Below, one piece after another: positions 5,914 through 35,991 of a stretch of 64,000 nucleotides of DNA. The position numbers were made by a program, and so were the translations under genes. Positions within the stretch are counted from its first letter, which is position 1, and every line of letters begins with the position of its first letter. The notes below the pieces were generated by a model. The model was not told the origin of the DNA. It saw only the letters and a program-made list of their open reading frames with translations, and searched no databases. Origin of the DNA: Candidatus Woesebacteria bacterium (GTDB lineage: Bacteria > Patescibacteriota > Microgenomatia > UBA8517); contig JAGUZK010000045.1 in assembly GCA_020060845.1 (NCBI GenBank), positions 8,685 through 72,684 on the forward strand, read 5' to 3'.

Positions 5914-5967
5914 AAGCATCTTGCTTTTTGTAACTGCACCAAATAAGACATACAATGTCTATATAAA

Positions 5968-6699: not shown

Positions 6700-6707
6700 A
6701 TATCCAA

Positions 6708-11487: not shown

Positions 11488-13120
11488 GTCCCAACTTTTC
11501 GGTGGAAGTCAGAGCCAGTTGTGGTAGTGGTATGTGACATAAGACTTCTACCTCACTCCTTTCTTTTATAATTACTTTCTCTATTATATCTCGAATGAAG
11601 TTCTTTTTGTCATACAACTTAAGGCTTTTGAGAGTCTTTCTTGCTTCAGCACATAATTCATCAGCCTCAATGTTGACTACTTCGGGTGAGACTCTGGCTT
11701 TTAGCTCCTCTAATTGCCTTTGATATCCCTCTTTCTTTCGTCTGGCTGCCCTTACTAACTCCATATACTGGTCAAACTCCATCACACCTGAACCATAGGC
11801 TTTGGCGTAGCGATTGATTTCTTCTGTCAGTTTGTCGATTTGCTCCTGAATCTTTAATCTCTCTTGGGTATCTGCTGATCGGTTTGCCTGTTCTCGAATC
11901 CATTCCTCAGCGTGCTTTTTAAGGAGCTCTGAATTAGTTAAATGGTTTGTCAATTCTTTCCAGACCAATGCGTCTAAAACTCTGGCATTTACCCCTCCAA
12001 TGTGGCAACGGCGTTGTTCTTTGGGAAAATGGTGTAATCTTTCTTCACAGCGGTAGTAGTAGTGTCCGTTTCTGTTACAACCATCTCCTGCCCTACGGTT
12101 ACCACATCCACACCACAATACCTCTGAGAGAAGATAATCAAACTTTCTGTGCTTCTTAGCATATCTTCGGTTGTATTCCATAATCTCTTGGGCTTTATCG
12201 TATAAAAATCTGTCCTCCATAATTATCGGCACCTTGAAGGGATACCACTCCTCTTTGGGTCGAAGGCGACGGCTATTTTTCTTTACTTTACGATATTTAT
12301 CATTTTTAATCCTAGTTTTAGACTCTACAGCCTCATGCTTATTGTAATAAGCGATTCCTGTCCAGTAGGTTTCGCAACGAAGCATTCTTGTTATCGAACC
12401 TTTCGTCCAAAAATCACTTCTTCTTTTCCTAGGCTTAATACCCAAATCGTATAAACGCCTAATAATACCGTTTATGGATACTCTTTCGATCACAAACCAG
12501 TCAAAAACTAATTTTATTGTCCGTATTTCTTCTTCGTTTCTCTCCCAGTGAGCAGGCGTGGTATCGGTTCTCTTAACATAGTTGTAGCCATACAAGGCAC
12601 TCCCGCTTATGACAACGCCGTTTTTAGCTTTGTAGAGTTTACCTCTCCTGAAGCGCTCGGCTATCTTTACCCTCTCATAATCATGGAAACAGCCCAACAC
12701 ATTTCTCATAAGACCTTGTTCTTCATTTATTGGATTAATATCGTGGAGGGAAATAACTTTGATCCCCGCTTCTTCAAATTCTCTAAGGAGAACAAGCTGA
12801 TATGTAAAATCCCTCGATAGACGACCAATATCATAAACATACAGGACTTGAATTTCCTGTCTTTTAATTGAGTCACGAAGTGCGTCTAAACCTGGTCGAG
12901 CCAACATCGTGCCTGTCCAGCCATTATCAAGAAAGATGTGTTTTTGAGAAAGAATGTTGCCATCAGCTTCAATTCTGCATTTCGTCTCATCAATCTGAGA
13001 TTCTATTGTGGCTTCTTGTTCCTGGCGACCTGTTGAAACTCTAGCATACAAACCCGCAATCAACGATTGCTTAACTCCACCGTTACCTGTATGATTTGTG
13101 TTAGGCAGTAAATCTTCCAT
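11429..13120 (-). CDS. large serine recombinase (resolvase-domain integrase)
   Basis: 563 aa. N-terminal resolvase catalytic domain (YARVSTGRQE...YVYDIGRLSRD), a recombinase domain, Cys-rich zinc-ribbon region (CGCG...C..C) and a coiled-coil. Its last ~59 nt overlap ychF. Confidence 0.85.
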   Translation of the reverse strand: MEDLLPNTNHTGNGGVKQSLIAGLYARVSTGRQEQEATIESQIDETKCRIEADGNILSQKHIFLDNGWTGTMLARPGLDALRDSIKRQEIQVLYVYDIGRLSRDFTYQLVLLREFEEAGIKVISLHDINPINEEQGLMRNVLGCFHDYERVKIAERFRRGKLYKAKNGVVISGSALYGYNYVKRTDTTPAHWERNEEEIRTIKLVFDWFVIERVSINGIIRRLYDLGIKPRKRRSDFWTKGSITRMLRCETYWTGIAYYNKHEAVESKTRIKNDKYRKVKKNSRRLRPKEEWYPFKVPIIMEDRFLYDKAQEIMEYNRRYAKKHRKFDYLLSEVLWCGCGNRRAGDGCNRNGHYYYRCEERLHHFPKEQRRCHIGGVNARVLDALVWKELTNHLTNSELLKKHAEEWIREQANRSADTQERLKIQEQIDKLTEEINRYAKAYGSGVMEFDQYMELVRAARRKKEGYQRQLEELKARVSPEVVNIEADELCAEARKTLKSLKLYDKKNFIRDIIEKVIIKERSEVEVLCHIPLPQLALTSTEKLGHEPIGRNCWFAKCRKVNAF

Positions 13121-17506: not shown

Positions 17507-20500
17507 TTATTTAATTCCTTTCTTCATAAGCTGGATGTTTTCATCTGCCCTTTGTTCCTCAAATTTAATGTTGTCATCTAAATACTTTTCATAGCCCTTA
17601 ATAAAAATCTGTAGGGTTGGATTCTTATCTTCCTTCCAGGGTTGAATCTCATCTTTTTTTCGCTTGTAGGCATCCTTCACTCCGTATTCTCCTGTTACTA
17701 CTCCTGTTTGAGAAAGAATGATAAACATTTCGCTTCGATATTCCCTATATAATTTGTTGCCTGTGTTTTGAAGAAATTTCTTAATGAAAGCCTTTGATAC
17801 TTCGTGGAGAAACGGTTCGCCTTTATAAGCTCTCAAAATTGAAAGAACTAAAAGTGCGTTGCGTTTACCACCCTGTTTTATTAAATCTAAAAGATAAGTT
17901 TCTAGCTTGCCGTTAAAAGAGGGAAAAATTGCTCTCAATAGATTACTTGCCTCAAAATGATACAGCCAATCTTTTTCCGAGAACCATTTTAATATCTCTG
18001 TAATTACGACTTTCTCAGATTGAGCCAAGTCTTCCCGAATTTCATGAAAATCTAGTGGAATAGCATCATATCTGTAGCGTTCTTGTGTTTTTAGATGATG
18101 AGTAACTCTCTCAAAGAAGAAACCTATTACTTTTTGAGGATATTTTTTTATAATTGGTTTTAAGATTTCTTCGACATGATAATCCACAGAAGAGTGGAGA
18201 ATTAAACTTTTTAGCACGGTATTGTAATCTTGACTCTTAAATGTCTCCAAAAGAGAATAATCTCTTACCCACAATCTTGTTGCCCAACTATCATCCTTGA
18301 TTTTAATTAACTCCTGCAGTGTTAAGATGAATATTTGCTTAAGTTGATTAGAATCACTATGCTTTTCCATGCAAACACGCAGGATGTTAAACATAGCATT
18401 TTTGTCTTTTGATCCAATTACCTTCTTAAATATCAGATTAAGCAGATCTAAATCTAGAGTATCGGTGTAGGTGAACAAATAACTCAACACAAAAAGGTGC
18501 CTACCTCTTTTTGACCATTCGATCGCCAACTTCTTAGCTAGGGGTTTTTTGCTACTTTCCCATATACCAGCCAGTAAGTGGATAAGGAAAAACTTCATTT
18601 CTTTTTCGTGTTTTGTCAGCAGTTCAATTGCAAATTCTGGTTTATCTTTACCCAGCCTGTGCAGGAAGATATTGAAGTATTGAAACTTGCCAGCATCCAC
18701 ATCTGTATATTCCTTGGCAATAGAGATAATCCTGTTTAACCATTCCTTCCGAGTTTCATCATTGATATTCTGAATAAACTTATTGATCTTGTTTTCTCGT
18801 TGTTCTTTTGCTTTTTTCCAATCCAATTCCTCATCAAACTTATAATCGTAGCCAAAAAAGACTTTGAACATGTTGTATTCTTTATCTGAAGCTATTCTTG
18901 TTTCTAACTCGCTTATCTTAGGAAGTCTATCCTTACCGTATCTTTTAACAAACCAGTGTGCCTGTTCTTCAATCTCTTTAATAAGTTGAGCATCGCTATC
19001 TGGAAATATCGACAAATAAAACTCTATAATTTTATTTGTATCATTTACTACTAAATCTTCTAACTCCTTGCTGTAATTACCTCTACTTGGCGTCCTAGTC
19101 GCCTCGTTTAATGACAGAAGTATTTCTTTTCTAACTTGAACATCTTTTGAGCTTGTATAAAGTTTCTTTAAGATTTCTATTGTGCGTCCCCTTATTTTTT
19201 GAAGTAATTCTGATGGCTTGAGAGAACCAAACGAAATTGTAAATGTCTTATAGTCAGACATTGAATGACCTTCATATTCTGGGTTTAACAACTCTTTGGC
19301 TATTATGTTAATTACTTCTTGATTTTTTATTTTTTTGCTATCGCTCCACTTTTCTAGTTCATCCAAGGTAGTGCCTTGAGCTAGATAACCAATATACTTT
19401 AAGGCATAAAGGTTATATTCAACTAAGGATTTAATCGCTTCGATTGCTTTTTTCCTATACTCTTCTTTCTCGGCAAGGTGCGTAAGCAAATCCAAAACTT
19501 CTTTAGGTTTGTGATATCTTACCTCTTTCAAGAGATCAATAACTTTAAGAATTACATCTTGATTCGATTTTCCCTTAAACTTCCCAAGTTTGCTTTTATA
19601 TTCTTTCTGGGGAAGGGGTTTTGCGTTTATGAGAGCCTTAGAAATCTTAATAACCTGGTCTGGAACTCGGAATGCGTATTGTTCAAGTATCTCTAAATTG
19701 GCACAAATATCATCATTGTTAGTCGGAGTTTTTGTAATAAAATTAAGTAATCCTATTGACTCTTTTTGTAAGAATTTGGTTGCCTGTTCTGTCTTAGCAA
19801 GTTGTTCTCGTATACGAGCCTTTTCCTCTTTCGAATCAAAGAAGCTATCTATATGCTCAGGTGAGGTATCGCTAATCAGTTCGAGGAGAGACTCCATGCC
19901 TATTTGTTCATTTTCAACAAGATACAAATTGGGTGTGCTGATAATTATCTCCTTATCTAATAATTTTTGGATAATTACGGTAATTTCTTCTTCTGATACT
20001 CTTAATATCTTGCTAAATATGGCAGCCACTTTTCCTTTAGGTATGGCTCTAATAAGATAAAGAAGCCCTACGCATTTAACTGTATTTTCTTCAAATGATC
20101 TCGCTAGGTCTGTTAGCGACTCACTCAACTCACGATAACTTTGACTCTTTGCAAATTGCTGCCATCGTCCATTTAGCTCACTGGAGTTATCTCCAATTTC
20201 CCTACCTGTCAAGTCAAGTGTCCTTCCTTTTGTGTCCGAGTGGAGTTTTAAGGATTTTTTTGTTTTCTCATCAAAAAAGAACCAATATGTTTTTTGAGCG
20301 GTTGTATCCACAACAAAAAGTAGGGTTGGAACACTGGAGTTAACAAGATAATCTATAACTGACCGCTTGCAGAAGTATTTGTTGTTCTTAATAGATTTTT
20401 TACTCTTTTGTTGGTAGTGGAGGTATTTCTCTAAATATCTTCCCCTGCCGTCCCTTAGGCGGATTTCTCCGTCAATATCTGGAGTTTTACCGTTAAACGG

Positions 20501-20590
20501 ATTTACTGAAAAATATGACTCGTCGAGAGAGGTCTGAAGAATTTTGCTACCCTTTTCATCAATCGTGTCTTGTTGAGTATATTTGCTCAT
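17507..20590 (-). CDS. large protein: DUF4365-like PD-(D/E)xK N-terminal domain + long alpha-helical (HEAT-like) repeat region; last gene of the Type III R-M operon
   Basis: 1027 aa. The N-terminal ~130 aa (PDIDGEIRLRDG...YLHYQQKS) match my recollection of the DUF4365 nuclease-fold pattern (DxD...QxK). The rest is helical with no NTPase motif. It starts 7 nt downstream of res. Confidence 0.6.
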   Translation of the reverse strand: MSKYTQQDTIDEKGSKILQTSLDESYFSVNPFNGKTPDIDGEIRLRDGRGRYLEKYLHYQQKSKKSIKNNKYFCKRSVIDYLVNSSVPTLLFVVDTTAQKTYWFFFDEKTKKSLKLHSDTKGRTLDLTGREIGDNSSELNGRWQQFAKSQSYRELSESLTDLARSFEENTVKCVGLLYLIRAIPKGKVAAIFSKILRVSEEEITVIIQKLLDKEIIISTPNLYLVENEQIGMESLLELISDTSPEHIDSFFDSKEEKARIREQLAKTEQATKFLQKESIGLLNFITKTPTNNDDICANLEILEQYAFRVPDQVIKISKALINAKPLPQKEYKSKLGKFKGKSNQDVILKVIDLLKEVRYHKPKEVLDLLTHLAEKEEYRKKAIEAIKSLVEYNLYALKYIGYLAQGTTLDELEKWSDSKKIKNQEVINIIAKELLNPEYEGHSMSDYKTFTISFGSLKPSELLQKIRGRTIEILKKLYTSSKDVQVRKEILLSLNEATRTPSRGNYSKELEDLVVNDTNKIIEFYLSIFPDSDAQLIKEIEEQAHWFVKRYGKDRLPKISELETRIASDKEYNMFKVFFGYDYKFDEELDWKKAKEQRENKINKFIQNINDETRKEWLNRIISIAKEYTDVDAGKFQYFNIFLHRLGKDKPEFAIELLTKHEKEMKFFLIHLLAGIWESSKKPLAKKLAIEWSKRGRHLFVLSYLFTYTDTLDLDLLNLIFKKVIGSKDKNAMFNILRVCMEKHSDSNQLKQIFILTLQELIKIKDDSWATRLWVRDYSLLETFKSQDYNTVLKSLILHSSVDYHVEEILKPIIKKYPQKVIGFFFERVTHHLKTQERYRYDAIPLDFHEIREDLAQSEKVVITEILKWFSEKDWLYHFEASNLLRAIFPSFNGKLETYLLDLIKQGGKRNALLVLSILRAYKGEPFLHEVSKAFIKKFLQNTGNKLYREYRSEMFIILSQTGVVTGEYGVKDAYKRKKDEIQPWKEDKNPTLQIFIKGYEKYLDDNIKFEEQRADENIQLMKKGIK

Positions 20591-20597
20591 TTCTCAT

Positions 20598-22916
20598 TCA
20601 ATTGACTGTATATGCGCTACTGATAATAGCGTCAAAACTGTTAATTCTGTTTACTGCCGTATGGGGCAAGAGTTTATAGATCCACTTCTTCTTAGTCGCT
20701 TCAGAGGCTATCTTGCACCATTCTTCTGCCTGCTTTGCCTTTTCCAAAACCTCTGGGTCTTTTTTGTCGAGTTTGCTTTTGTCTTTTACTTCTACCAAGT
20801 AATTGGCATCTTTTCTCTCGACAATAAAATCTGGGTTATAGTTGCCGTAAATATACTTAATTGGTAGTTGTCCGTTTCTAAGCCTTACCCAACTAATAAC
20901 TGTTTTGTCTTTCTCTAAGGAATCTGCTAGTAGTTTCTCTTGTGTCGAATCAAAAACATAAGCAGGGTAAACACTTTTGTTATAACCCTCGATGATATTG
21001 CCTCTAGACTCAGTTTCGCTTACTTCGTCTTTATTTAATGGCACTGCTGAGGCTTTTACCACTTTCATGTATGGCTCAAAAGGAATTTCTTCATCCACCA
21101 CTTGATACTCAATCCTTGTTTGCTCATCCAGCTTTTCTCGCAGCTGGGGTAAGATATCATTCAGAATTGTCTGCTCATGCAGTTTTACGAGTTCCGATAG
21201 TTCTTTCCCTTTAACTTGAAGTTGATCGAGATAATGTTTAACTAATCTTTGCAAGACAGCCTTGAAAGAAATATCAAATTCAGACATCTCAAGTAGAATG
21301 AGTCTAACAATCCTATTAACTGGATTAATTTCTTCCTTTACTTCGATGTCTCCTGCTTCTTCTGTTTGCCTGGAAACAATATCTGCTTTAATAAGTTTTG
21401 GTTTAATTTTCTTTAACTCCTCTAGGCGCAACTTTATTGGAAAGAACTCCAATTTATTGCTTGAATATACTCTTGCTTCAACAGATGGAATTTTAATCCA
21501 AAGTTTTTTGTTTTCAATTGGCTTAATTTCAACTGTTTTTAATTCCTCTTTCTTTTCTGCCTTTTTAACCCCAAGCCCTTCTGCTACTTCATGGGCAACT
21601 GCCACCACTCTGGCAAAATTGTCGTGAGAGATAATATCCAGGGAATCCAGCTCTTCAACGCCCGTTAGCTCGCCAAAGGGCAATCTAAGCCCCCTACCAA
21701 TGGTTTGCTCGATAAGAGTCCTACTGATTGAGGCCCTGAAGGGGATGATGGTATAGACATTTTTAACATCCCAGCCTTCTTTGAGTTTGTCCACATGAAT
21801 GACAATCTCATTTTTATTAACTGGGAATGGTTCTTCTAAACGGAGCAGTTGATGAATAGAGTCAACTTCACTTTCGCTAGTTACCAATAGTGTTTTATCC
21901 TTGTAATAGCCATCAAAGAAATCGTCACTTTCAACCATTGTTTTAACATCTTTGGCGTGTTGGATGTTTCTAGTCGTTATAAGGGTGATGGGCAATACAA
22001 AGGGGAGTTTGTTATTTTTACAGTATTCTTCGATTAAAGCCTTCTTTTCTCTGTGCCTTCTTATTCCATCCTCAAGTTTGACTAGTTCGAGGTCGCCTTT
22101 ATAGGTATAGTCATCGCTTCGAGCTATGACATAAGGAATTTTGATGTAACCGCCTTTAGCGCCGTTACCGTCATGTAAGCTCGCCAAAGCCTTTTTAGAA
22201 TCGTTTATAGCGTCTGCCAGTGTATAAGAATAGACAACATTGTTCTCGTTGGCTGGTGTAGCCGTGAACTCCAGTCCTAGTTCTGGTTTCAGATGGTTTA
22301 TTGCCTTGATTGACTTTACCCCTCGATAACGGTGACTTTCATCCATTAAAATAACTAGATCTTTTTGTTGGAGAAGTTCAGCAAAGCTCGATCCTAGAGT
22401 TTCTTGATAGCGGTGAAATCTAAACTCAACATCAGTTCGTTCATTGAAAATCTTTTGGATGTTGAAGACATAAATGTTAACCGCATCAAAAAGCTGGTTG
22501 CCAAAGTTAGCGTAGGTGTAATTTTCACCTGTGATTAAATTAAACATCGGAAAGTCGGTTAAACCGTCTAGGACATATTTTTTACTCGAAGGAGTAAAGT
22601 TGTCGATTGTTTTTGTATAAATTGTTTCTCCTGGAGTTAGAATAAAGAAATCTTTTAATCCCTTCGTGTAGTAAAGATAAGCGATCATTGCAGCCATTAG
22701 CCTGGTTTTGCCCACGCCTGTTGCTAGCGCAAATGTGAATGAAGGAAATTCAGTATCAAATTTGATATTACCAACTAATCTTGCCTCAATATCTTCAAGT
22801 TTATCTTTGCCGAGCTTTATTCCTGAGATGATTGAGTCAAGTTTAACAAGAGAAAGTTCTTGAGGCTTTCTTAAACTTAATTCCTTAGTTAATTTTTCGA
22901 TAATGTTCATACTCAT
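20598..22916 (-). CDS. res: Type III restriction enzyme Res subunit
   Basis: 772 aa. SF2 helicase motifs (ATGVGKTR, DEAH-like MDESHRY) and a C-terminal PD-(D/E)xK motif (PDFIV...LVEVKD). Confidence 0.85.
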   Translation of the reverse strand: MSMNIIEKLTKELSLRKPQELSLVKLDSIISGIKLGKDKLEDIEARLVGNIKFDTEFPSFTFALATGVGKTRLMAAMIAYLYYTKGLKDFFILTPGETIYTKTIDNFTPSSKKYVLDGLTDFPMFNLITGENYTYANFGNQLFDAVNIYVFNIQKIFNERTDVEFRFHRYQETLGSSFAELLQQKDLVILMDESHRYRGVKSIKAINHLKPELGLEFTATPANENNVVYSYTLADAINDSKKALASLHDGNGAKGGYIKIPYVIARSDDYTYKGDLELVKLEDGIRRHREKKALIEEYCKNNKLPFVLPITLITTRNIQHAKDVKTMVESDDFFDGYYKDKTLLVTSESEVDSIHQLLRLEEPFPVNKNEIVIHVDKLKEGWDVKNVYTIIPFRASISRTLIEQTIGRGLRLPFGELTGVEELDSLDIISHDNFARVVAVAHEVAEGLGVKKAEKKEELKTVEIKPIENKKLWIKIPSVEARVYSSNKLEFFPIKLRLEELKKIKPKLIKADIVSRQTEEAGDIEVKEEINPVNRIVRLILLEMSEFDISFKAVLQRLVKHYLDQLQVKGKELSELVKLHEQTILNDILPQLREKLDEQTRIEYQVVDEEIPFEPYMKVVKASAVPLNKDEVSETESRGNIIEGYNKSVYPAYVFDSTQEKLLADSLEKDKTVISWVRLRNGQLPIKYIYGNYNPDFIVERKDANYLVEVKDKSKLDKKDPEVLEKAKQAEEWCKIASEATKKKWIYKLLPHTAVNRINSFDAIISSAYTVN

Positions 22917-24580
22917 ACTTTAAACTTTTTTAATAAAACATCGGGAATTTTTCTAACTTCGACATTTTCTGGTAACTTAATTTTACTTGATATTGTTTTG
23001 GCATAGATAATAAGATAATCAGCTTTGTCGCCAACTTCTCGCACTATAGCATTTACATAATCCTGACTAAGATATTGTTCAGTTACATGGGCGATAGTTC
23101 TTCCTGAAATACCATGTAGGGCATTATCTGGATTAAGGAGTTTGAACCCTTCAACTTTCAGAACTGCCCGAATAAGATCTCCGTTGTAGACCTTTGGATT
23201 TAGAACCGTTAGCCTCAAATCATCATCGGCTACAAATAGACTGTCTCCCAGCTCAAAATATTTGAAACCGCCCCCACCTTTCCATCCAACTTCTTTACTG
23301 ATACCGCTTTGATCTTCTCCTGAAATCACTCTTTTCAAGCGGGGGATGATATGAGTTTTTGCATGCTCACCCAACTCTACCATTATCCATTTCCTACCCA
23401 TCTTATGAGCTACTGCACCCGTTGTGCCTGAACCTGCAAAACTATCCAAAACAATATCTCCTGGTTTTGTAGCCAATTCTATAATTAATTTGATTAAAGC
23501 CTCTGGTTTTTTGCTCTGCTTAAACTCAACTCCTCCTTCAAGGTGAAGAGCTGCATTTGGGAATTTCCATATGTTCGAAAGTCGCTGTTTTTTGATCAGT
23601 GTTCCATCTTTCTTTTTTTCAACAACTTCTTTTAACCAGGCGACTATACGCCCATTTAGAAAGTAAGTCTTGATAAGTTGCCCTGCATATTTTCCTTTTG
23701 TCGGGATATATTCGATGTAAGACAGTCCTTTTTGGGGTATCTCTGGTCGAATTTGTAAAATTGTCCCACCGCTTGGGTTATAGTCAGCAAAAACATTGTT
23801 AAAATGCTTGTAATAATCATCTATAGAGTCGCTCGTCCTAAACTTCTTGATCTCGTAATTCTCACATTTATATATCTTAATTTCTCCGATATTCAATCTT
23901 TGAATTGTTTTGATAAGTTTTGACTTGCCTGGATTTAATAAGGCTTTGTTATATCCTTTGACAAAACCTTCTATCTCCACTTCTGTCATCGTTTGTAAAG
24001 TACCTTCTTCTCTAAGAAGTTTATAGTCCTTGGCATAAACAAGGATGTATTCACTAACATCAAAAATTAAACTTTGTTGTCCTACTCCAGCCACATCTTT
24101 TACCTGAACTGTAATAAAGGATACAAAATTATCATCTCCAAACTTTTCATCCATAATCATTTTCAATCGAGCGAATTCCCTGGAATCAATATGCACAAAT
24201 ATAAGACCCCTTTTATTTAACAGTTTATGAAGTAAGTCGATTCTATCCCTCATCATTGTCAGCCAAATAGAGTGTTCTAAACCGTCATCATAAAATTCAA
24301 AAGCAGCACCAGTATTAAATGGGGGATCGATATAGATAAGTTTTATCTTTCCTTCATAATCGGGAAGAAGGGCTTTTAACGCTAAAAGATTGTCTCCTTT
24401 TATTAAGATGTTTTCTGTATTTTTATCACCATAGACTGCTTTCTCTAGAAGAATGCGAGGCTCTGAGACCCTGGGGTCTTTTTTATCTACCCATTGATAT
24501 TTTTTCTTTTCAGGATCATAGTAAAGACTTTTGTCTTTGTTATACCAGGTTAATTCTAATTTTTTACTTTTTTGAGACAT
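22913..24580 (-). CDS. mod: Type III DNA methyltransferase Mod subunit (N6-adenine)
   Basis: 555 aa with motif IV IYIDPPFNTG and a SAM-binding region; overlaps res by 4 nt. Confidence 0.85.
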   Translation of the reverse strand: MSQKSKKLELTWYNKDKSLYYDPEKKKYQWVDKKDPRVSEPRILLEKAVYGDKNTENILIKGDNLLALKALLPDYEGKIKLIYIDPPFNTGAAFEFYDDGLEHSIWLTMMRDRIDLLHKLLNKRGLIFVHIDSREFARLKMIMDEKFGDDNFVSFITVQVKDVAGVGQQSLIFDVSEYILVYAKDYKLLREEGTLQTMTEVEIEGFVKGYNKALLNPGKSKLIKTIQRLNIGEIKIYKCENYEIKKFRTSDSIDDYYKHFNNVFADYNPSGGTILQIRPEIPQKGLSYIEYIPTKGKYAGQLIKTYFLNGRIVAWLKEVVEKKKDGTLIKKQRLSNIWKFPNAALHLEGGVEFKQSKKPEALIKLIIELATKPGDIVLDSFAGSGTTGAVAHKMGRKWIMVELGEHAKTHIIPRLKRVISGEDQSGISKEVGWKGGGGFKYFELGDSLFVADDDLRLTVLNPKVYNGDLIRAVLKVEGFKLLNPDNALHGISGRTIAHVTEQYLSQDYVNAIVREVGDKADYLIIYAKTISSKIKLPENVEVRKIPDVLLKKFKV

Positions 24581-24581
24581 A

Positions 24582-25421
24582 TCAATCTTTTACTAAACTT
24601 AATGTTTTAACAAAATCAATGAATTTATAACCAAACTCTGTAAGGAATTCTACTTTGCTAGCACCTGAACCAATACCACCATCTTTTACTCCTACTCTAA
24701 ATATTCCAAGAGATAGAAGCTCACTTGATATTTCAGCATATTGGTTTTGTTTCTTCCGTTCTTCTTCAAACTGTGCCTTACTTAGGTTCTTGTCTTGGGA
24801 GATATTGGGAATTCTTGATTTAACAATCTCGCTATTAGGATTAAATTCTTCATAAATCCAGTGCATGATAACCTCAGAGTCTGGTTTCTGTCTCATAGTA
24901 AGTTCTTCCCACCACTCAACACTACCTTCATGCTTTCCTTTCATCTTAGCTACTTCTTCCTTTGCCCATTTTTCTTTCCTAGGGATAATAACCTCAGATA
25001 TAAACTTTAAATACTCAAGAGATTCTAATGAAATTTCCTGAGCCACTCGATAAAACCTTTCTAGATTTATTAGATGCCTATCTTCTGCTGAAACATAACC
25101 ATCTAGATAAATTTGCTGTATGAGTTTTCTTTTCTTTATTTCTCTGGTTCTTATTAATGCTTCAAAAGTTATTGCTAATGACTGTTGAAATTCTTGAGAG
25201 CTTAATATTTCTTCCTTAAGTTGGGGAACATGTTTTTTTAATAGATTCCAAAATTCTTTACCTTCATCTGGATATAAGTCAAAAAAAGACCAAACTGCAA
25301 CTTTGCAAAAAAATAAAGATCCTCTCGTGTAAGGATTAGGAGGAAGATTTTTCTCTATTTCATCCATTAAAGCTAAAAAAGTATTTTTTGTCACAGCTTT
25401 CAATGTTTTAGATATTTTCAT
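24582..25421 (-). CDS. hypothetical protein (operon member, unknown function)
   Basis: 279 aa, translationally coupled (1-nt gap to mod, 4-nt overlap with HTH gene). Confidence 0.5.
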   Translation of the reverse strand: MKISKTLKAVTKNTFLALMDEIEKNLPPNPYTRGSLFFCKVAVWSFFDLYPDEGKEFWNLLKKHVPQLKEEILSSQEFQQSLAITFEALIRTREIKKRKLIQQIYLDGYVSAEDRHLINLERFYRVAQEISLESLEYLKFISEVIIPRKEKWAKEEVAKMKGKHEGSVEWWEELTMRQKPDSEVIMHWIYEEFNPNSEIVKSRIPNISQDKNLSKAQFEEERKKQNQYAEISSELLSLGIFRVGVKDGGIGSGASKVEFLTEFGYKFIDFVKTLSLVKD

Positions 25422-25612
25422 TTTTTCTTTTTATTTAAAAAGATTTTTATTTTGTTAGGATCATATCTTCTATCTCCTCGTTTATTAATTCTAACAGCCT
25501 TGAGTTTGCCATCCTTATCCCATCTGCGTAAGGTTTCGGCATGCACATTTAAGATTTCTGCTGCTTGTTTTATGGTTAGGAGTTTTGGTAAATCAAATTT
25601 ATTTTTACTCAT
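25418..25612 (-). CDS. excisionase-family HTH DNA-binding protein
   Basis: 64 aa: LTIKQAAEILNVHAETLRRWDKDGKLKAVRI. Confidence 0.55.
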   Translation of the reverse strand: MSKNKFDLPKLLTIKQAAEILNVHAETLRRWDKDGKLKAVRINKRGDRRYDPNKIKIFLNKKKK

Positions 25613-25614
25613 AT

Positions 25615-27420
25615 TTAATGTTGACTATTTAATTTTGTTGCTATGGCTTCTTGTTCATCGTATAGAGCTTTGTCCTGATCAATCATTTTCTGCTCGGCTG
25701 CTGTTAGCCATTGATTAGACTCCATCCTTGTAACGATTGCCGAAATATTAGCGATTCTTGTCGATATTATCTCATTAATTCTATCAATATCGCTTTTATT
25801 TTTCTCATAAAATTCTTTGTATTCTTTTAACTTTGCCCAACCTGGTTGAATTTCTTTTAATCTTTCAAGTGAAGTTCTCCAACTATCTATTACTTCTTTT
25901 GAATAGTTGGGTGGTACATAACCTGCAAAATGCTGAACGATTACTTGAGTGGGGCAACCATTGATTTCTCCTTCTACCTCAGCGATGCCTACCTCTTGAT
26001 AGGTTTTATCTGTTAAAAATTTTTTGGATTCTGGAAACTGGAATTGGTTGTCAATTAACTCTTCTGCTTCGTAATAACCCTGTGTAGGTGCTTCACCCCA
26101 AACAATATTGGAGTAATTAGTCTCCCTCATAGCCTTTTCCATTGTGTAACCACTTCTTGTTGCCTCAAAGGAGAAATCGTCAAACTTTAAGATTGTCTCG
26201 CCTCTTTTTTGAGCCGACAGTTCAAGTTTTGGTTGGTATTTTAGTTCTCTTGCACCTGCCTCTTTTCGCTTTTCGTTAAGAAGTGTTAAGTATTTTTCTT
26301 TATCAAGTTTTATCTTTGAGGATTCATCAAAATCTCTTGAGGTATCTCGCCAGTATTTAGCAAGATCACCCTTTTGATCTTTAAGGGGCAAGACATGATT
26401 GACAGCGCTAATCTCAACAAACCCAATTTCTCTTGAATCTCCACTTCCTTTGCGATTGTCTCCCATTACAAAAATATGGTTTTCAGGGACAATCACTTTC
26501 TGACATTCCTTTAGAAAAGCCTCTCCAAATGTGGATCGAGGCTTTGCGGTATAAGGTTCTTTTAAGGGCTCGCCGTTAAGGTAAACAATTCCTTCTCGAA
26601 GTTCGATACTGTCGCCTGGCACACCAATTACTCTTTTAACCCACCCTGAAGGTTCACCATACATATTTTTGGTCATCTCCCTAATTTTGTCGTTTTCAAC
26701 AACAACAATGTCCCCCCTACCGATTTCATAATTAAAGTATCTTCTGCCCGCAATTACTAATCCGTTAGGGTAGCGTATCATGCCTGGGTAGCCAACAATT
26801 TGTTTTGCCAATTCTTTGGGGTCTTTTCCTTCGCCTTTGGGAAAGGTTGGAAACATTGACCCTGTCCCAGCTATAGCAATTGCTTCTGGGTCGTAACCTA
26901 AAGCCTCCTTAACCATTACCCCAACTAGTGCGTAACCACCAATCCAAATCGGCAAGATAATTGCACCAACAATTAAAAGTGCGATTATTTTTGTCATGAA
27001 AGGTTTGATACTAAACCCTTTAAGTAGCCCCTTGATGCCTGTATGTTTAAGTTTTTTGATAGCTTCAAGGGGTCTGAGGATATAAACCGCCAAATAAAGG
27101 GGTAAAACAGCAAGAATAAAGAAGAGCTTTATAAGAAAAACAAAGATATTTTGCTTTTTCTGAGACCTCTTAGCTATAAGTTGGGCAGTAAAACTAATAA
27201 TCCCCACTAAGAAAGCCAGACATCCTACTAAAACCAACCCTAAAACTAAGAAGGCATAGATATTGGGAGCTTTATCAAAAAGTTCTCTTCTGATACCTAC
27301 AACATAGCCGATCATTACTAACACACTTATGACGCAGGTTAGCCAAATCACAAATGAGATCTTAATGACTTTATTAAAGGGCGCTTTTTTCTCTTGTAGT
27401 TGTGACAGTTTTTTCGGCAT
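25615..27420 (-). CDS. signal peptidase I (S26)-domain membrane protein with extra ~250-aa C-terminal domain
   Basis: 601 aa. N-terminal multi-TM region, then catalytic motifs GSMFPTF (Ser), VKRVIGVPGD (Lys) and GDNRKGSGDSR, then an unassigned C-terminal domain. First gene of the six-gene operon. Confidence 0.7.
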   Translation of the reverse strand: MPKKLSQLQEKKAPFNKVIKISFVIWLTCVISVLVMIGYVVGIRRELFDKAPNIYAFLVLGLVLVGCLAFLVGIISFTAQLIAKRSQKKQNIFVFLIKLFFILAVLPLYLAVYILRPLEAIKKLKHTGIKGLLKGFSIKPFMTKIIALLIVGAIILPIWIGGYALVGVMVKEALGYDPEAIAIAGTGSMFPTFPKGEGKDPKELAKQIVGYPGMIRYPNGLVIAGRRYFNYEIGRGDIVVVENDKIREMTKNMYGEPSGWVKRVIGVPGDSIELREGIVYLNGEPLKEPYTAKPRSTFGEAFLKECQKVIVPENHIFVMGDNRKGSGDSREIGFVEISAVNHVLPLKDQKGDLAKYWRDTSRDFDESSKIKLDKEKYLTLLNEKRKEAGARELKYQPKLELSAQKRGETILKFDDFSFEATRSGYTMEKAMRETNYSNIVWGEAPTQGYYEAEELIDNQFQFPESKKFLTDKTYQEVGIAEVEGEINGCPTQVIVQHFAGYVPPNYSKEVIDSWRTSLERLKEIQPGWAKLKEYKEFYEKNKSDIDRINEIISTRIANISAIVTRMESNQWLTAAEQKMIDQDKALYDEQEAIATKLNSQH

Positions 27421-27474
27421 AACTCAACAAAATTATACAAAAATTAAAGAGAAATTGGTATACTGTTTGTTGCT

Positions 27475-28311
27475 ATGGCAGATAATTTAGAAGAAAGAAT
27501 TAGTGAACGCCTTAAAAAGCTTCAATCAAGAAAGGGATATTATTATCTCCTTACACATCTTGATTACCCATCAAATCAGAAGCGCCTGGACAAAAACGCT
27601 ATAAACGCTCAAATAAAAGTGATTGAGGACGCACTGCCAGAAATTAAAAAACTGATGAAGCAAATCAAAAGATATGTCCCCCATATTTGGGATCAGACTA
27701 AATATGCAGCAGCCTATCTGCTTCTTGGGAAGGCATTTAGTAATCTTGAAACGATAATTCTTCTTGCCCAGAAAGGACACAATCTTGAGATGGTAGATTT
27801 AGCACGCTCTGGAACGGAATCTATTGATTTAGCATTTCTTTTATCTGAAGATAGCCAAAACCAACAACTTGAAAAGTGGTTTAAGGGGAAAATTATCGAA
27901 AATGAAAAAGCCCGAAAGGCTCTTGATAGAGTAATTAACCAACTAAATCCTGCTTCCGTCAAACTACCCGTAGAGGAAATGAAAAAAGAAGTTTATAAAA
28001 CCTATTCCCTCTACACACATAGCAGTTATGCTGCTCTCCTAGATTCAATCGATGTCTTTCATGAAGATTTTGATTTTGAAAGATATGCAGGATTTCACTT
28101 CGCCAGAAGAAACCTACACGCTGTCCAAGACCTGGCTATCAAAATTCTATTACAGCTGAAAAACATCTATGTGCAATGTAAAAATCAAGATTGTCTAAAT
28201 GAAGTCGACGAATTACTAAAACAAATAGGACATATTGATATGACCCCAGGAGAAATCGCCAAAGTTATAAATGAGCATCTTGGTGATAGGAGTAAAAAAG
28301 ATAAAACATAA
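27475..28311 (+). CDS. hypothetical helical protein
   Basis: 278 aa, divergent from the six-gene operon across a 54-bp intergenic region. Confidence 0.5.
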   Translation: MADNLEERISERLKKLQSRKGYYYLLTHLDYPSNQKRLDKNAINAQIKVIEDALPEIKKLMKQIKRYVPHIWDQTKYAAAYLLLGKAFSNLETIILLAQKGHNLEMVDLARSGTESIDLAFLLSEDSQNQQLEKWFKGKIIENEKARKALDRVINQLNPASVKLPVEEMKKEVYKTYSLYTHSSYAALLDSIDVFHEDFDFERYAGFHFARRNLHAVQDLAIKILLQLKNIYVQCKNQDCLNEVDELLKQIGHIDMTPGEIAKVINEHLGDRSKKDKT

Positions 28312-28326
28312 ATTGTTCTGAATATT

Positions 28327-29421
28327 ATGGCTCATTATCGATATTTGAGGGACGAATCTTACTATAATGACCTTTACGATCTCCACACCATCGAGACCTG
28401 TCTTGATTACTACTGGAGCTTGAAAAGTGGCTTTGAAAAGCATCGGGGTGACAAGAGTTTCAAAAAATACTCCAAGAAAAAGTTCGATACCGAGGTTCAC
28501 AAAGTTGTCAGCTATACCATCAACGCTATTAAAATCGACAGGTTTCGGCATAAAAAGGACACCATCCTAAAGTGGATGGACGATGATCGCCAACGCCAGG
28601 ATCGATTAGACAATGCCGTCGAACCGAAGGATATTCTCTGCCATCAATGCAATAGCCCAATGCTCGCTACCACTAAAGACCTCATAGACCACCTAAATAA
28701 ACCCATGAGAGTTCTTTTCTTCTTTGAATGTCCAAACTGCAAGAAAAGACGAGGTGTTTATGATGATGGCTCAGAGTTTGTTTCAAAACCCCCACTCTGC
28801 CCTAAGTGCAAACACGAAGCCAGGCTAACCTACAAAAGAAAGGGGGAGGTAACAATCTGGACGACTTCCTGTTCTTCTTGTGGCTATAAAGAGGTTGACA
28901 AAGACGATTTTAATAAATGGGAAGTCGATAGAAAGAAAAAAGAAGAGCGAGATCGACTCCTACTTAAGGAATATCGTGCTGAGTTTTGTCTCTCTGATGA
29001 AGATGGTCAGGATTGCCTTTGGAGAATTGACCAGATGAAAAGGCTCGTAGACGAAATGGAAGAGCGGGAAAAACACAAAAAAGAATATGACGCAGTAGCC
29101 AACATTAAAAAACTGACTGTTGTCGAGCTTGAAAAGCTCATTAACGACACCATCAATTCTCAAGGTTATATCCGTCTTGAATTGTCCAAGCCTGAGTTTG
29201 GAAAGCAGCTTATCGTTGGTTTTACTGTCCAAGACAGTAACACCTCCCGCCAAGAGTATGACAGTCGCAATGGCTTCAGAAAGCTCGTTCAGGGGGCTTT
29301 ATCAGGCACAAACTGGCGCTTGATGGTCACCAGCCTTAGTTATCGATTGGGTTATCTTCAGGGTAGCCTCAGAGCCTACGAAACAGAGGAAGACATCCTC
29401 ACCCTTGTAAGGAAGAAGTAA
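28327..29421 (+). CDS. hypothetical protein with two zinc-ribbon-like CxxC pairs
   Basis: 364 aa with CHQC...CPNC and CPKC...CSSC; lies 15 nt after the previous gene. Confidence 0.5.
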   Translation: MAHYRYLRDESYYNDLYDLHTIETCLDYYWSLKSGFEKHRGDKSFKKYSKKKFDTEVHKVVSYTINAIKIDRFRHKKDTILKWMDDDRQRQDRLDNAVEPKDILCHQCNSPMLATTKDLIDHLNKPMRVLFFFECPNCKKRRGVYDDGSEFVSKPPLCPKCKHEARLTYKRKGEVTIWTTSCSSCGYKEVDKDDFNKWEVDRKKKEERDRLLLKEYRAEFCLSDEDGQDCLWRIDQMKRLVDEMEEREKHKKEYDAVANIKKLTVVELEKLINDTINSQGYIRLELSKPEFGKQLIVGFTVQDSNTSRQEYDSRNGFRKLVQGALSGTNWRLMVTSLSYRLGYLQGSLRAYETEEDILTLVRKK

Positions 29422-29974
29422 AAAATCTCATTAGTTTTTCAATCGCTATGTTAATTTCAGAGACAGATTGATCTAGTTCAGAGAGATCAACATCTTTTAT
29501 CGCTTTAGAGAAATTAAATGATCGTTGTGGTTTCAAGACCTTAGGTATGTTAATCTTGTGAGTTGTCGAGGGTATTCCCTCTTTTTCGTTCCCATATTGT
29601 ATAAACCACTGAGAATGGACTATATCATTCCTTGCTTTGCAACACTTCATAAGTAACTCTAGTATTTCCTCAAACTCTCTTGCTCTCTTTTTGCCACATC
29701 TTTCAACAACTAAAGACCTGAGTAGTTGAACCTTCTTCTCAAAACCTAAAGGCGAAGTAATTCTCCTTCCTATTTGTTGCTTTACTCCCGCATTTCCCTC
29801 AGCACCAATAAGTTCCCAAATCCAAAATTCAACCATCGCCTCCAAGTGGTTTAGGAGAACAACTACTTCCCCTATCTTTGCAAGATATTCTTTTGTTTTA
29901 GGGTCTTGATTATCAAGAATTTTCGCTGGCATATCCCAATTATAAGCTATTTGTGGGCATGGCAGGACTTTCAT
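29399..29974 (-). CDS. HEPN-like (Rx4H) protein, possible abortive-infection/RNase component
   Basis: 191 aa, all-helical, with KARNDIVH matching the HEPN Rx4-6H motif. Convergent with the previous gene and overlapping its 3' end. Confidence 0.3.
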   Translation of the reverse strand: MKVLPCPQIAYNWDMPAKILDNQDPKTKEYLAKIGEVVVLLNHLEAMVEFWIWELIGAEGNAGVKQQIGRRITSPLGFEKKVQLLRSLVVERCGKKRAREFEEILELLMKCCKARNDIVHSQWFIQYGNEKEGIPSTTHKINIPKVLKPQRSFNFSKAIKDVDLSELDQSVSEINIAIEKLMRFFTSSLQG

Positions 29975-30025
29975 AGCTGATAGGTGGCGGTGTAGAGCGT
30001 ATTATTCTTCCATAATCGTCTCTCT

Positions 30026-30130
30026 GGGTGATAATTCTGACAGTTCTTTTGTTTGGAAGTAAGAAGTTAAATCTGAAGTCTAAAGTTGTGGAATATCTTA
30101 TTCTATCCCTACAGAAAGATTTGACATCGG
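30026..30130. repeat. copy A of ~100-bp imperfect direct repeat (degenerate copy of the 5' end of the 35788..35991 ORF)
   Basis: Core tgaagtctaaagttgtgg...tcttat...cc..acagaaagatttgacat is about 80% identical to 35931-35988. Confidence 0.7.
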
Positions 30131-30280
30131 TTTAAAAAATCACTTAACAGTTAATTTTAGCAAAAATGAGGTTGTTTTGTTTAGGTTTTAGAAGCTTAAG
30201 TTCTAGTACAAAATCTCAAATACGAAATCCGAAGAGTTTAAAGTTATTCTAGAACTAGAACTATTTTATCATTAAGAAAA

Positions 30281-35787: not shown

Positions 35788-35991
35788 TTATCCCTGTAAA
35801 AGCCCGTATGAAGGTTTAGAAGGGTTCTCCAGGATTAATGGTGGTGGCACGGAGCGGATAATTCTCCCTAAGTTATCTCTTTCCTCAATAATCCGCCATT
35901 TTCTTGGGTGTGGGAGAATAAGCCCGAACTTGAAGTCTAATGTTGTGGTTGGGTATGTCTTATCCCGACAGAAAGACTTGACATTGAGCAA
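35788..35991 (-). CDS. small hypothetical ORF (67 aa) whose 5' end lies in repeat copy B
   Basis: The ORF is intact here; a degenerate pseudo-copy (MSNLSVGIE*) is found at 30105-30134. Confidence 0.3.
   Translation of the reverse strand: MLNVKSFCRDKTYPTTTLDFKFGLILPHPRKWRIIEERDNLGRIIRSVPPPLILENPSKPSYGLLQG
35857..35988. repeat. copy B of ~100-bp imperfect direct repeat
   Basis: See copy A; contains ttgacat and cagaaagacttgacat. Confidence 0.7.

What the first reader, a model, noticed from the sequence alone, without database searches (positions are those of the whole stretch)
27475..29974. Divergent module of three unknown proteins including Zn-ribbon and HEPN-like (Rx4H) genes
Directly across a 54-bp divergent promoter region from the defence operon lie a 278-aa helical protein and a 364-aa protein with two CxxC...CxxC pairs, 15 nt apart. 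They converge on, and overlap by 23 nt, a 191-aa helical protein carrying ARNDIVH (HEPN Rx4H). HEPN proteins are frequent toxin or Abi effectors. The arrangement suggests a second defence or toxin-antitoxin-like module.
Basis: partly seen in the sequence, partly recalled or inferred. Interest (0 to 1): 0.5.

Follow-up and report, generated by a model that had tools for sequence, protein, structure and literature searches.

The report
Unlinked accessory genes in defence island
The three genes are real, and one carries a well-conserved HEPN-type RNase signature, but they are not a fixed three-gene system: they are independently distributed accessory genes at one edge of a variable, restriction-modification-rich island in a tiny Woesebacteria (CPR) genome.

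Summary
All three ORFs, the 15-nt gap, the 23-nt convergent overlap and the motifs are present as described. The 191-aa ORF most likely starts at Met15 (177 aa).

- **A (278 aa)** is a divergent DUF5677 protein.
- **B (364 aa)** has two conserved Zn-ribbons. It belongs to a large Patescibacteria family found next to RM systems, CBASS and OLD-like nucleases.
- **C** belongs to a family of at least 894 sequence clusters that no Pfam model covers. It has invariant R, N/D and H (RNxxxH) and an invariant upstream acidic residue. This is the HEPN signature, but fold evidence is only weak.

Linkage mostly fails:
- 0 of 10 other A loci carry B or C.
- 1 of 88 B loci carries A, and none carries C.
- Other C loci lack A and B, apart from a B remnant in L001/L002.

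In close relatives C sits directly beside ychF. Here about 18 kb lies between them, holding a serine recombinase, type III RM, a signal peptidase, A and B.

One arrangement does recur: B, then a variable nuclease-like gene converging on it, then a conserved small ORF that is conserved in two reading frames. C is one of several genes filling that slot.

Verdict: defence-island accessory genes, with a probable stand-alone HEPN RNase. It is not a three-gene or toxin-antitoxin module. Moderate interest.

The parts
27475..28311 (+). Gene A, 278 aa: a divergent DUF5677-family protein. It occupies a variable slot upstream of B.
   Evidence: ORF. The protein matches Pfam DUF5677 at E 0.0033, below the cutoff. 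24 of 42 homologues match DUF5677, best 1.8e-5. Invariant residues include R111, E115, R147, Y174, S178, H182, D193 and D200. No B or C lies near 10 other A loci.
28327..29421 (+). Gene B, 364 aa: a double Zn-ribbon protein of a large Patescibacteria family. Layout: helical hairpin, two Zn-ribbons, coiled coil, ferredoxin-like C-terminal domain.
   Evidence: ORF. 118 homologue clusters and at least 393 metagenome matches. Four conserved CxxC motifs. AF2 model has pLDDT 91.6. No specific PDB fold or sequence match. Neighbours are RM, CBASS, OLD-like and DUF2779 genes.
29399..29932 (-). Gene C, 177 aa from Met15 (the ORF is open to 29974, 191 aa): a small all-alpha protein with the HEPN-type RNDxxH motif.
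29940..30131 (-). Conserved small ORF ('sORF') directly upstream of C. The ATG at 30127 opens frame A (MSNLSVGIE*). The longer conserved peptide (…TTLDFRF…RIITQRDDYGRIIRSTPPP…NSL*) is in the -1 frame, has no canonical start, and ends 7 nt before C's ATG.
   Evidence: codon-position variation 28/47, 20/48, 40/47. (13 copies, with Ser TCN/AGY and Leu CTN/TTR codon switches in frame A). No RNA consensus structure. No Rfam or Pfam match.
27421..27474 (.). 54-bp divergent intergenic region between the signal peptidase gene and A. It contains TGGTATACT about 9 nt before A's ATG.
   Evidence: Sequence. The consensus promoter scan lists no + strand site here.
25615..27420 (-). 601-aa membrane signal peptidase I (S26) with a CAP-like C-terminal domain. 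It is syntenic with B in two lineages.
   Evidence: Pfam Peptidase_S26 at 2.1e-27 and NCBIfam sigpep_I_bact at 2.2e-26. L016 carries HTH, SigPep (60% id), then divergently a 208-aa gene and B (70% id).
25418..25612 (-). 64-aa MerR/HTH_17 (excisionase-like) protein. The left breakpoint of the block shared with CP055308.1 lies inside this gene (25455).
20598..24580 (-). Type III restriction-modification genes: Res (772 aa, 20598..22916) and Mod (555 aa, 22913..24580). This cassette is replaced by a different RM cassette in other strains.
   Evidence: CP055308.1 and L105 carry an 860-aa ResIII protein, DUF3800 and a 589-aa methylase instead.
11429..13120 (-). 563-aa large serine recombinase at the ychF-proximal end of the roughly 18-kb variable region.
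   Evidence: Pfam Resolvase 1.4e-27, Recombinase and Zn_ribbon_recom. Same arrangement in L110.
10384..11487 (-). ychF, followed by rpsF and ssb: the conserved flank. It lies directly beside C in relatives that lack the island.
35788..35991 (-). Second copy of the sORF (67 aa, TTG start). It lies upstream of a 196-aa gene with a sub-threshold nucleoside 2-deoxyribosyltransferase match.

Best explanation
A, B and C are three separate accessory genes at the C-proximal edge of a mosaic, roughly 18-kb variable island. The island spans window ~11.4-29.4 kb. It carries a large serine recombinase, small HTH genes, a DUF4365 nuclease-like protein, type III RM, a signal peptidase paralogue, A and B. 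It lies between ychF and gene C of a Candidatus Woesebacteria genome.

C is the member with a readable mechanism. It belongs to an unannotated family of small all-alpha proteins with the HEPN catalytic signature: an acidic residue in an N-terminal helix, and R-N/D-x3-H near the end of a long helix. It most likely acts as a metal-independent RNase that works as a dimer. That would make it a stand-alone abortive-infection or toxin-type effector like AbiU2, ApeA or AbiV. RNase activity and dimerisation are inferred, not shown.

C is transcribed with, and probably translationally coupled to, a conserved small upstream ORF.

B is a Patescibacteria-specific double-Zn-ribbon protein. It recurs beside many different defence systems without a fixed partner. 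It is most likely a nucleic-acid-binding accessory or regulatory protein of defence islands (inferred, low confidence).

A is a divergent DUF5677 protein, also island-borne, of unknown activity.

A and C fill variable slots on either side of B rather than forming an obligate complex with it.
For: Independence of the genes:
- A loci L006-L015 have no B or C and no shared neighbour.
- 80 metagenomic and 8 IMG/VR B loci yield A once (L049) and C never.
- C homologues L003/L004 lie directly before ychF-rpsF-ssb.
- L096-L102 lie next to integrases, a resolvase, an AbiJ-like gene or a methylase, without A or B.

Island:
- ychF is at 10384..11487 and C at 29.4 kb.
- The serine recombinase abuts ychF.
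- L001/L002 keep only the last 82 codons of B between C and ychF.
- The RM cassette and the right flank differ between strains that share a 99.2% identical SigPep-A-B-C block.

Slots around B:
- In the 65-70% B-homologue loci, the gene upstream of B is A, a 208-aa gene, a 397-aa gene or absent.
- The convergent gene is C, a 250-aa protein with RDIVEH, or a 154-156-aa gene plus a Zn-ribbon/RNase H gene.

HEPN signature:
- Conservation counts are; the definition is in PMC3710099.
- HEPN models are the only recurrent weak Pfam hits.

Defence context of B:
- Type III RM, HEPN_AbiU2 and DUF3644.
- Type I RM, OLD-TOPRIM/AAA, Eco57I and DUF2779.
- In L027 a SAVED effector and a CD-NTase sit immediately upstream of B.
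Against: - A-then-B adjacency recurs in one distant locus (L049: B 40% id, A 45% id). This is more than random placement predicts, so a loose functional tie is not excluded.
- SigPep-A-B-C is kept 99% identical across strains whose flanks differ. That could mean the block is selected as a unit.
- No HEPN Pfam model reaches its cutoff.
- Foldseek finds no significant PDB match.
- The C model is mediocre (pLDDT 70).
- DUF5677 gave no phage protection in the one published test (PMC12632615).
- No function for A or B is shown by anything here.
Confidence: 0.6

Rival explanations
1. A, B and C form one defence or toxin-antitoxin-like module, with the HEPN protein C as toxin or effector and A and/or B as its sensor or antitoxin.
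For: - A and B are 15 nt apart, and B and C overlap convergently by 23 nt.
- The block is 99% conserved among strains with different flanks.
- A-B adjacency recurs in L049.
- A B remnant still abuts C in L001/L002.
Against: - 0 of 10 A loci have B or C.
- 1 of 88 B loci has A and 0 of 88 has C.
- C is maintained without A or B in L003/L004 and L096-L102, and beside a truncated B in L001. A toxin that depended on them should not tolerate this.
- There are no PADLOC hits.
Confidence: 0.08
2. A modular system built on B and the small ORF. B and the conserved sORF are the constant parts. Between them lies an exchangeable effector slot filled by C (HEPN), a 250-aa RDIVEH protein, a Zn-ribbon/RNase H pair or others. 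Effector expression is gated by the unusual two-frame translation of the sORF.
For: - The arrangement B, convergent cargo, sORF recurs in the window lineage, L016/L037, L017/L018, L028, L033 and L080.
- Cargo genes start 3-58 nt after the sORF stop.
- Several cargo genes look like nucleases.
- The sORF is found in 9 of 88 B loci and 0 of 10 A loci.
Against: - Most B loci (about 90%) have no detectable sORF.
- The sORF also precedes a LexA-like gene (L027) and a 196-aa gene 6 kb from B (window 35.8 kb).
- B and the cargo are convergent, separate transcription units.
- Two conserved genes flanking a recombination hot spot would give the same picture.
- C homologues exist without an intact sORF (L003, L096).
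Confidence: 0.15
3. Not defence at all. C is a non-catalytic helical protein whose RNxxxH motif serves another role. A and B are lineage-specific housekeeping or regulatory proteins that happen to lie beside a recombination hot spot.
For: - No curated family, PADLOC or PDB match exists for any of the three.
- In close relatives C sits next to ychF-rpsF-ssb.
- B is very widespread in Patescibacteria.
- Fold evidence for HEPN is weak.
Against: - R, N/D, H and an acidic residue are invariant across 94 divergent sequences. This fits a catalytic site.
- B pseudogenes and remnants show it is dispensable (L021/L022, L001).
- Neighbours of A, B and C are repeatedly RM systems, CBASS, OLD-like nucleases, Abi-like genes, integrases and resolvases.
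Confidence: 0.15

Closest known systems
Stand-alone HEPN abortive-infection or RM-embedded HEPN proteins (AbiU2, AbiV, ApeA, integron-cassette HEPN; Anantharaman et al. 2013, PMC3710099)
   Same: - A small all-alpha protein.
- Invariant Rx4H with N/D after the R, and a conserved upstream acidic residue.
- Single gene without a fixed partner.
- Sits in RM-rich, integrase- or recombinase-bearing islands.
- A bona fide HEPN_AbiU2 gene occupies a comparable island position in L017.
   Different: - No HEPN Pfam model reaches significance.
- No profile similarity to the AbiU2 homologue in L017.
- A roughly 35-residue, poorly modelled beta-containing insert lies between the motif helix and the last helix.
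- Activity is untested.
HEPN-MNT type II/VII toxin-antitoxin pairs (e.g. SO_3166/SO_3165; PDB 5yep, 7ae2, 8xdj)
   Same: - The same motif type.
   Different: - No MNT nucleotidyltransferase or any other conserved partner sits next to C in any context.
- C is larger (177 aa versus about 130-140 aa).
- The upstream sORF is not an MNT and is absent or decayed in some C loci.
Pfam DUF5677 (PF18928)
   Same: 24 of 42 A-family members match the model over its N-terminal half. Two were already tagged PF18928 in the database. DUF5677 is enriched near serine-recombinase-marked defence loci in Bacillota (PMC12632615), and A also lies in an island with a serine recombinase.
   Different: The window protein scores below the gathering cutoff (18 versus 27.1 bits). 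The family has no known function, and the tested DUF5677 gene was not among those giving phage resistance.
Defence-island-associated regulators that accompany many unrelated systems (BrxR/WYL, CapH-CapP); comparison from my own knowledge of these families
   Same: - B occurs beside type I and III RM, CBASS, OLD-like and DUF2779 nucleases without a fixed partner.
- It has Zn-ribbons. Long forms add a C-terminal Cys-rich segment whose fold was not examined.
   Different: - No sequence or fold similarity to those families.
- DNA binding and any regulatory role are untested.
- B is usually the last gene of an operon rather than divergently placed.

Membership tests
HEPN superfamily (for C) | Rx4-6H motif, with a polar residue (N, D or H) right after the R | tested here: met
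   R115 94/94, N116 90/94 with D in the other 4, H120 93/94 in 94 divergent relatives. Definition from PMC3710099.
HEPN superfamily (for C) | Second conserved acidic residue in an N-terminal helix | tested here: met
   E45 82/94 plus D 12/94, so acidic in 94/94. It lies in modelled helix 25-57. The usual Ex3[KR] context is not present. Spatial proximity to the motif was not measured.
HEPN superfamily (for C) | Four-helix up-down bundle, with the motif at the end of helix 3 before the link to helix 4 | tested here: inconclusive
   [not shown]
HEPN superfamily (for C) | Significant profile match to a curated HEPN family | tested here: not met
   The window protein has no Pfam, NCBIfam, PADLOC or PHROG hit. 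Relatives give only sub-threshold hits: RiboL-PSP 8e-4, Apea 1e-3, Cthe2314 2.5e-4. PDB profile searches are negative.
HEPN superfamily (for C) | Metal-independent RNase activity dependent on the R and H | not testable with these tools
   Needs biochemistry.
HEPN-MNT or other type II toxin-antitoxin pair (for C with a neighbour) | Conserved adjacent antitoxin gene that co-occurs with the toxin | tested here: not met
   Neighbours of C differ in every independent context. A and B are absent from them. The sORF is truncated in L003 and absent upstream of C in L096.
Conserved three-gene defence system A-B-C | Co-occurrence and conserved order of the three genes in unrelated genomes | tested here: not met
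   0 of 10 A loci have B or C. 1 of 88 B loci has A and 0 of 88 has C. All three occur together only in near-identical strains.
Pfam DUF5677 (for A) | Match to PF18928 above the gathering score | tested here: inconclusive
   Window protein: 18 bits against a 27.1 cutoff, E 0.0033, covering profile positions 2-78 of 166. 24 of 42 family members match at E<=0.1, best 1.8e-5. Two database homologues carry a precomputed PF18928 tag.
Zn-ribbon proteins (for B) | Two pairs of CxxC ligands on beta-hairpins | tested here: met
   Four CxxC motifs are invariant or at least 90% conserved. The model places them on beta-strands 113-194. Weak matches to ZPR1 and RPB9 ribbons cover residues 152-191 only. This defines a fold element, not a function.
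Known anti-phage defence systems (PADLOC-DB 2.0) | Match of any of A, B or C to a PADLOC model | tested here: not met
   No family at E<=1 for A, B or C.

The most novel reading that the evidence does not exclude
B and the two-frame small ORF are the constant parts of a Patescibacteria-specific, cassette-like defence locus. Alternative nuclease effectors are swapped into the slot between them: the HEPN-like C, a 250-aa RDIVEH protein, or a Zn-ribbon/RNase H pair. Effector translation is coupled to a conserved recoding event in the leaderless small ORF. That event could be a -1/+2 frameshift, or a bypass at the invariant TTTAGA 20 nt after the MSLSVG(I/T) codons.
Probability: 0.12. Interest if true: 0.75.

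Novelty: new member of a known kind. Interest (0 to 1): 0.42.

Why it matters
Defence repertoires of CPR/Patescibacteria are poorly charted because standard models (PADLOC, Pfam) miss them.

- C defines a sizeable family (at least 894 clusters at 50% identity) with a clean HEPN catalytic signature that no Pfam model covers.
- B is an abundant CPR-specific protein that tracks RM, CBASS and OLD-like systems. It is a good guilt-by-association candidate for a new defence accessory or regulator.

The analysis also shows that tight spacing and overlap in these compact genomes do not imply a functional module. Finally, the small ORF conserved in two reading frames is a cheap, testable candidate for translational recoding in an uncultured phylum.

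Tried and rejected
- **Family scans.** Pfam, NCBIfam, PHROGs and PADLOC scans of A, B and C gave only weak DUF5677 and Zn-ribbon hits.
- **PDB sequence searches.** Profiles of all three families, and the wider C profile, gave no meaningful hit.
- **Profile-profile comparisons.** C versus A, C versus the AbiU2 homologue of L017, and C versus the 250-aa cargo were all negative.
- **Window 279-aa gene versus L017 AbiU2.** Unrelated.
- **Foldseek of the C model against PDB.** Nothing significant. The afdb50 library was unavailable.
- **tblastn against annotated records.** B was searched against phages, and A and C against plasmids. There was no match.
- **A family in IMG/VR.** None found. The C profile was too diverse to scan.
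- **The 8 'viral' B contigs.** They turned out to be RM/OLD defence islands, not phages.
- **att-like repeats.** A search across 11.3-30.3 kb gave only short chance-level repeats.
- **Upstream-of-C element as a structured RNA.** No Rfam hit and a consensus fold of -0.77 kcal/mol, so the RNA idea was dropped in favour of coding. Its peptide has no Pfam match, and an exact-pattern scan of IMG/VR found no copy.
- **Promoter and terminator scan.** At background level.
Full report
**1. Observation**

- A: 27475..28311 (+), 278 aa.
- B: 28327..29421 (+), 364 aa.
- C: 29399..29974 (-), 191 aa.
- A and B are 15 nt apart. B and C converge and overlap by 23 nt. A 54-bp gap separates A from the divergent upstream ORF.

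B has four CxxC motifs, at C105/C108, C135/C138, C158/C161 and C182/C185. All are invariant or at least 90% conserved in 55 homologues. C contains ARNDIVH.

All three have full-length homologues: 15 clusters for C, 54 for A and 118 for B. They are real genes.

Two corrections are needed.
- All C homologues begin at the equivalent of Met15. A gene caller called 177 aa in L106. A conserved upstream small ORF ends 7 nt before that ATG. C is therefore most likely 29399..29932.
- The gene across the 54-bp gap is a 601-aa membrane signal peptidase I with a CAP-like domain, not a recognisable defence gene. The type III Mod and Res genes lie beyond it, a MerR/HTH_17 gene and a 279-aa unknown.

**2. 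Source and large-scale context**

The window is from a Candidatus Woesebacteria genome close to CP055308.1 (802 kb).

In relatives carrying C at 70% identity (L003/L004), C is followed directly by ychF-rpsF-ssb. In the window those genes are at 9.5-11.5 kb and C is at 29.4 kb.

The intervening ~18 kb holds, in order:
- a large serine recombinase abutting ychF (11429..13120);
- several unknown ORFs;
- a 1027-aa DUF4365/Aga-REase-like protein;
- type III Res and Mod;
- a 279-aa unknown and an HTH gene;
- the signal peptidase, A and B.

A relative with C at 82% identity (L001/L002) keeps only the last 82 codons of B between C and ychF. I read this as a deletion scar.

Strains carrying an identical B share a 4.7-kb block (25455..30159) at 99.2% identity. 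It covers part of the HTH gene, SigPep, A, B, C and the upstream element. These strains carry a different RM cassette on the left and at least four different right flanks.

So this is a mosaic, recombinase-bearing defence island with hot spots on both sides of the block. No att-like repeats were detected.

**3. Are A, B and C linked elsewhere?**

- For A, ten other genomes with A homologues (37-49% id) have no B or C within 8 kb and no shared neighbour. Their neighbours are island-like: a type III Res homologue plus a P-loop ATPase-like protein in L015 (read from sequence), a protein with a DUF262-like motif in L009 (also from sequence), and integrase-like genes in L011, L012 and L014.
- For B, 80 metagenomic loci contain A once (L049, in the same A-then-B order) and C never. 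Eight IMG/VR loci contain neither. A wider C profile finds nothing either.
- For C, the other contexts are L003/L004, L096/L097 (integrase immediately upstream, resolvase, AbiJ-like), L098/L099 (HATPase_c_3), L100/L101 (integrase) and L102 (integrase, HTH, D12-type methylase). All lack A and B.

The residual signal is the second A-B adjacency in L049, where B is 40% and A 45% identical to the window proteins. Both A and B are also repeatedly found beside type III RM.

**4. What each protein is**

*A.* The window protein matches Pfam DUF5677 below threshold (E 0.0033). However, 24 of 42 family members match it (best 1.8e-5), and two database homologues already carry the tag. A is a divergent DUF5677 protein. 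DUF5677 was reported as enriched near serine-recombinase-marked defence loci in Bacillota, but it was not among the genes that gave phage resistance when tested (PMC12632615). A has no Rx4-6H motif and no profile similarity to C.

*B.* The AF2 model is confident (pLDDT 91.6). Its layout is:
- an N-terminal helical hairpin (10-96);
- two Zn-ribbon beta units (about 100-194);
- a coiled coil (195-258);
- an alpha/beta C-terminal domain (265-364).

The family is large (at least 393 metagenome matches) and, where named, comes from Patescibacteria.

B is usually the downstream gene of an operon: a co-oriented gene lies within 60 nt upstream in 38 of 70 loci. The partner varies. Its surroundings are rich in defence genes:
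- type III RM with Res 90-92% identical to the window's, HEPN_AbiU2 and DUF3644;
- type I RM, OLD-TOPRIM/AAA, Eco57I-type, DUF2779/PD-(D/E)XK and SMODS;
- in L027, a SAVED effector and a CD-NTase end 6 nt before B.

B pseudogenes and remnants exist (L021/L022, L001), so it is dispensable.

*C.* A profile search of 1.84 billion representatives finds 894 clusters at E<=1e-3, nearly all 150-190 aa. In 94 divergent members:
- R115 is 94/94;
- N116 is 90/94, with D in the other 4;
- H120 is 93/94;
- S121 is 84/94 and W123 is 82/94;
- E45 is acidic in 94/94.

This is the HEPN signature described by Anantharaman et al. (PMC3710099): Rx4-6H with a polar N/D/H after the R, plus an upstream acidic residue.

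No Pfam model reaches significance. Yet HEPN models (RiboL-PSP, Apea, Cthe2314, Swt1) supply several of the few sub-threshold hits. That is unlikely by chance, because HEPN models are a very small share of Pfam's 24,736 (my estimate, a few dozen).

I rate HEPN-superfamily membership at about 0.65. RNase activity is inferred.

**5. A conserved architecture that was not in the finding**

The ~190 nt upstream of C has a second copy in the window (35788..35991). It also recurs upstream of whichever gene converges on B in the 65-70% B-homologue loci:
- a 250-aa protein with an RDIVEH motif (L016/L037);
- a Zn-ribbon/RNase H protein followed by a 154-156-aa protein (L017/L018).

At the peptide level it is also found in L027 (before a LexA-like gene heading a CBASS operon that ends with B), L028, L031, L033 and L080.

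It has no consensus RNA structure and no Rfam hit. Its substitution pattern is that of coding sequence: 28/47, 20/48 and 40/47 variable sites at codon positions 1, 2 and 3.

Conservation lies in two frames.
- In several copies a TATAAT-like box lies just upstream of the ATG (GTG in L080). That codon opens M-(S/N)-L-S-(V/I/C)-G-(I/T).
- This stretch shows Ser TCN/AGY and Leu CTN/TTR codon switches and codon-sized indels.
- Exactly 20 nt later in 12 of 13 copies there is a near-invariant TTTAGA. It forms a stop in that frame.
- Conservation then continues in the -1 frame: ...LDF(R/K)F..P.PRK.RII.(Q/E)RD..GRI.(H/R)S.PP... This frame ends 3-58 nt before the cargo gene.
- The second frame lacks a canonical start upstream of its conserved part in most copies.

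This may be programmed recoding, or a leader peptide followed by reinitiation. I could not decide between them.

For the finding, it means C occupies a variable cargo slot between this sORF and B. A occupies a variable slot on the other side of B: A, a 208-aa gene, a 397-aa gene, or nothing.

**6. Mechanism, committed**

The most likely reading (0.6) is this.
- C is a stand-alone HEPN-type RNase effector of the Abi or toxin kind. It is expressed from the sORF promoter and translationally coupled to the sORF.
- B is a nucleic-acid-binding accessory or regulator that travels with many defence systems.
- A is an island-borne DUF5677 protein of unknown activity.
- The three are neighbours because they share a recombination-prone island, not because they form a complex.

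Shown:
- gene reality;
- motif conservation;
- lack of linkage in the loci sampled;
- island mosaicism;
- defence-rich neighbourhoods.

Inferred:
- RNase activity and dimerisation of C;
- any role of A or B;
- coupling to the sORF.

**7. Comparison, novelty and score**

C works like the RM-embedded or integron-borne stand-alone HEPN proteins. It cannot be filed in any curated HEPN family, so it is best described as a new family-level member of the HEPN superfamily. It is not a HEPN-MNT toxin, because it has no conserved partner. A is a DUF5677 relative. B has no known relative beyond its Zn-ribbons.

Overall this is a new member of a known kind: defence-island accessory genes with a HEPN effector. 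Interest is 0.42. The main claim of a three-gene module fails. However, the uncovered HEPN-like family, the CPR-wide defence-associated protein B and the two-frame sORF are each worth a follow-up.

Noticed in passing
window 29940..30131 (-) and 35788..35991 (-); also L001 1335-1535, L016 7854-8060, L017 6934-7104, L018 8190-8381, L027 2461-2619, L028 9024-9206, L033 3432-3587, L080 3421-3582: A conserved small gene precedes variable cargo genes. A leaderless-looking ATG opens MSxLSVG(I/T). After exactly 20 nt (12 of 13 copies) an invariant TTTAGA gives a stop in that frame. Conservation then continues in the -1 frame (LDFxF..P.PRK.RII.QRD..GRI.HS.PP), which has no canonical start in most copies. 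This is a candidate for recoding or reinitiation. There is no Rfam hit, no Pfam hit and no consensus RNA fold.
   Followed up: partly
window 20598..25455 versus L104/L105 (CP055308.1) 1877-7286: Strains sharing a 99.2% identical SigPep-A-B-C block carry different RM cassettes to the left of the HTH gene. The window has type III Mod, Res and a 279-aa gene. The others have a 589-aa methylase, DUF3800 and an 860-aa ResIII/TnsA-like protein. The breakpoint lies inside the HTH gene, at about 25455.
   Followed up: partly
window 30160 onwards versus L104, L105 and L106: The right flank also differs among strains, immediately upstream of the sORF. It is NUDIX etc. in the window and L103, an RrnaAD methyltransferase etc. 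in CP055308.1, and other genes in L105 and L106. The two direct sORF copies in the window bracket 30.2-35.8 kb (NUDIX to the 196-aa gene).
   Followed up: no
window 11429..13120 (-): A 563-aa large serine recombinase gene overlaps the annotated start of ychF by 59 nt. In L110 a small HTH_17 gene sits next to it. It is probably the integration module of the ~18-kb island. The att sites were not found.
   Followed up: partly
window 17507..20590 (-): A 1027-aa protein has an N-terminal DUF4365 domain and matches PADLOC model Aga_REase-PNTD1-PNTD2 (1.4e-9). It lies next to the type III RM genes. Another strain (L110/L103) has three genes here instead, one with a NucS_C domain.
   Followed up: no
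L027 2461-7077: One co-oriented gene string: sORF, LexA-like repressor, SAVED-domain protein, CD-NTase, B. This is a CBASS-type operon in a Patescibacteria contig with B as its last gene.
   Followed up: partly
L016 7094-7846 (-) and L037 641-1393 (-): A 250-aa protein in the same slot as C carries FDRRDIVEHP, an Rx4H-type motif. It may be another HEPN-like effector. It shows no profile similarity to the C family.
   Followed up: partly
L021 5575-6690 and L022 322-1437; L001 2056-2292: B occurs as a pseudogene, split by an in-frame stop into 118- and 252-aa pieces, and as an 82-codon remnant. B is therefore dispensable.
   Followed up: no
window 25615..27420 (-): A signal peptidase I is fused to several N-terminal TM segments and a CAP/SCP-like domain. 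It stays syntenic with HTH and B in L016 (60% id). The deletion in L001 suggests it is an accessory paralogue rather than the housekeeping LepB.
   Followed up: no
whole window: ARAGORN finds no tRNA gene in the 64 kb. GC skew is negative throughout, and nearly all genes are on the minus strand except A, B and a few island ORFs.
   Followed up: no
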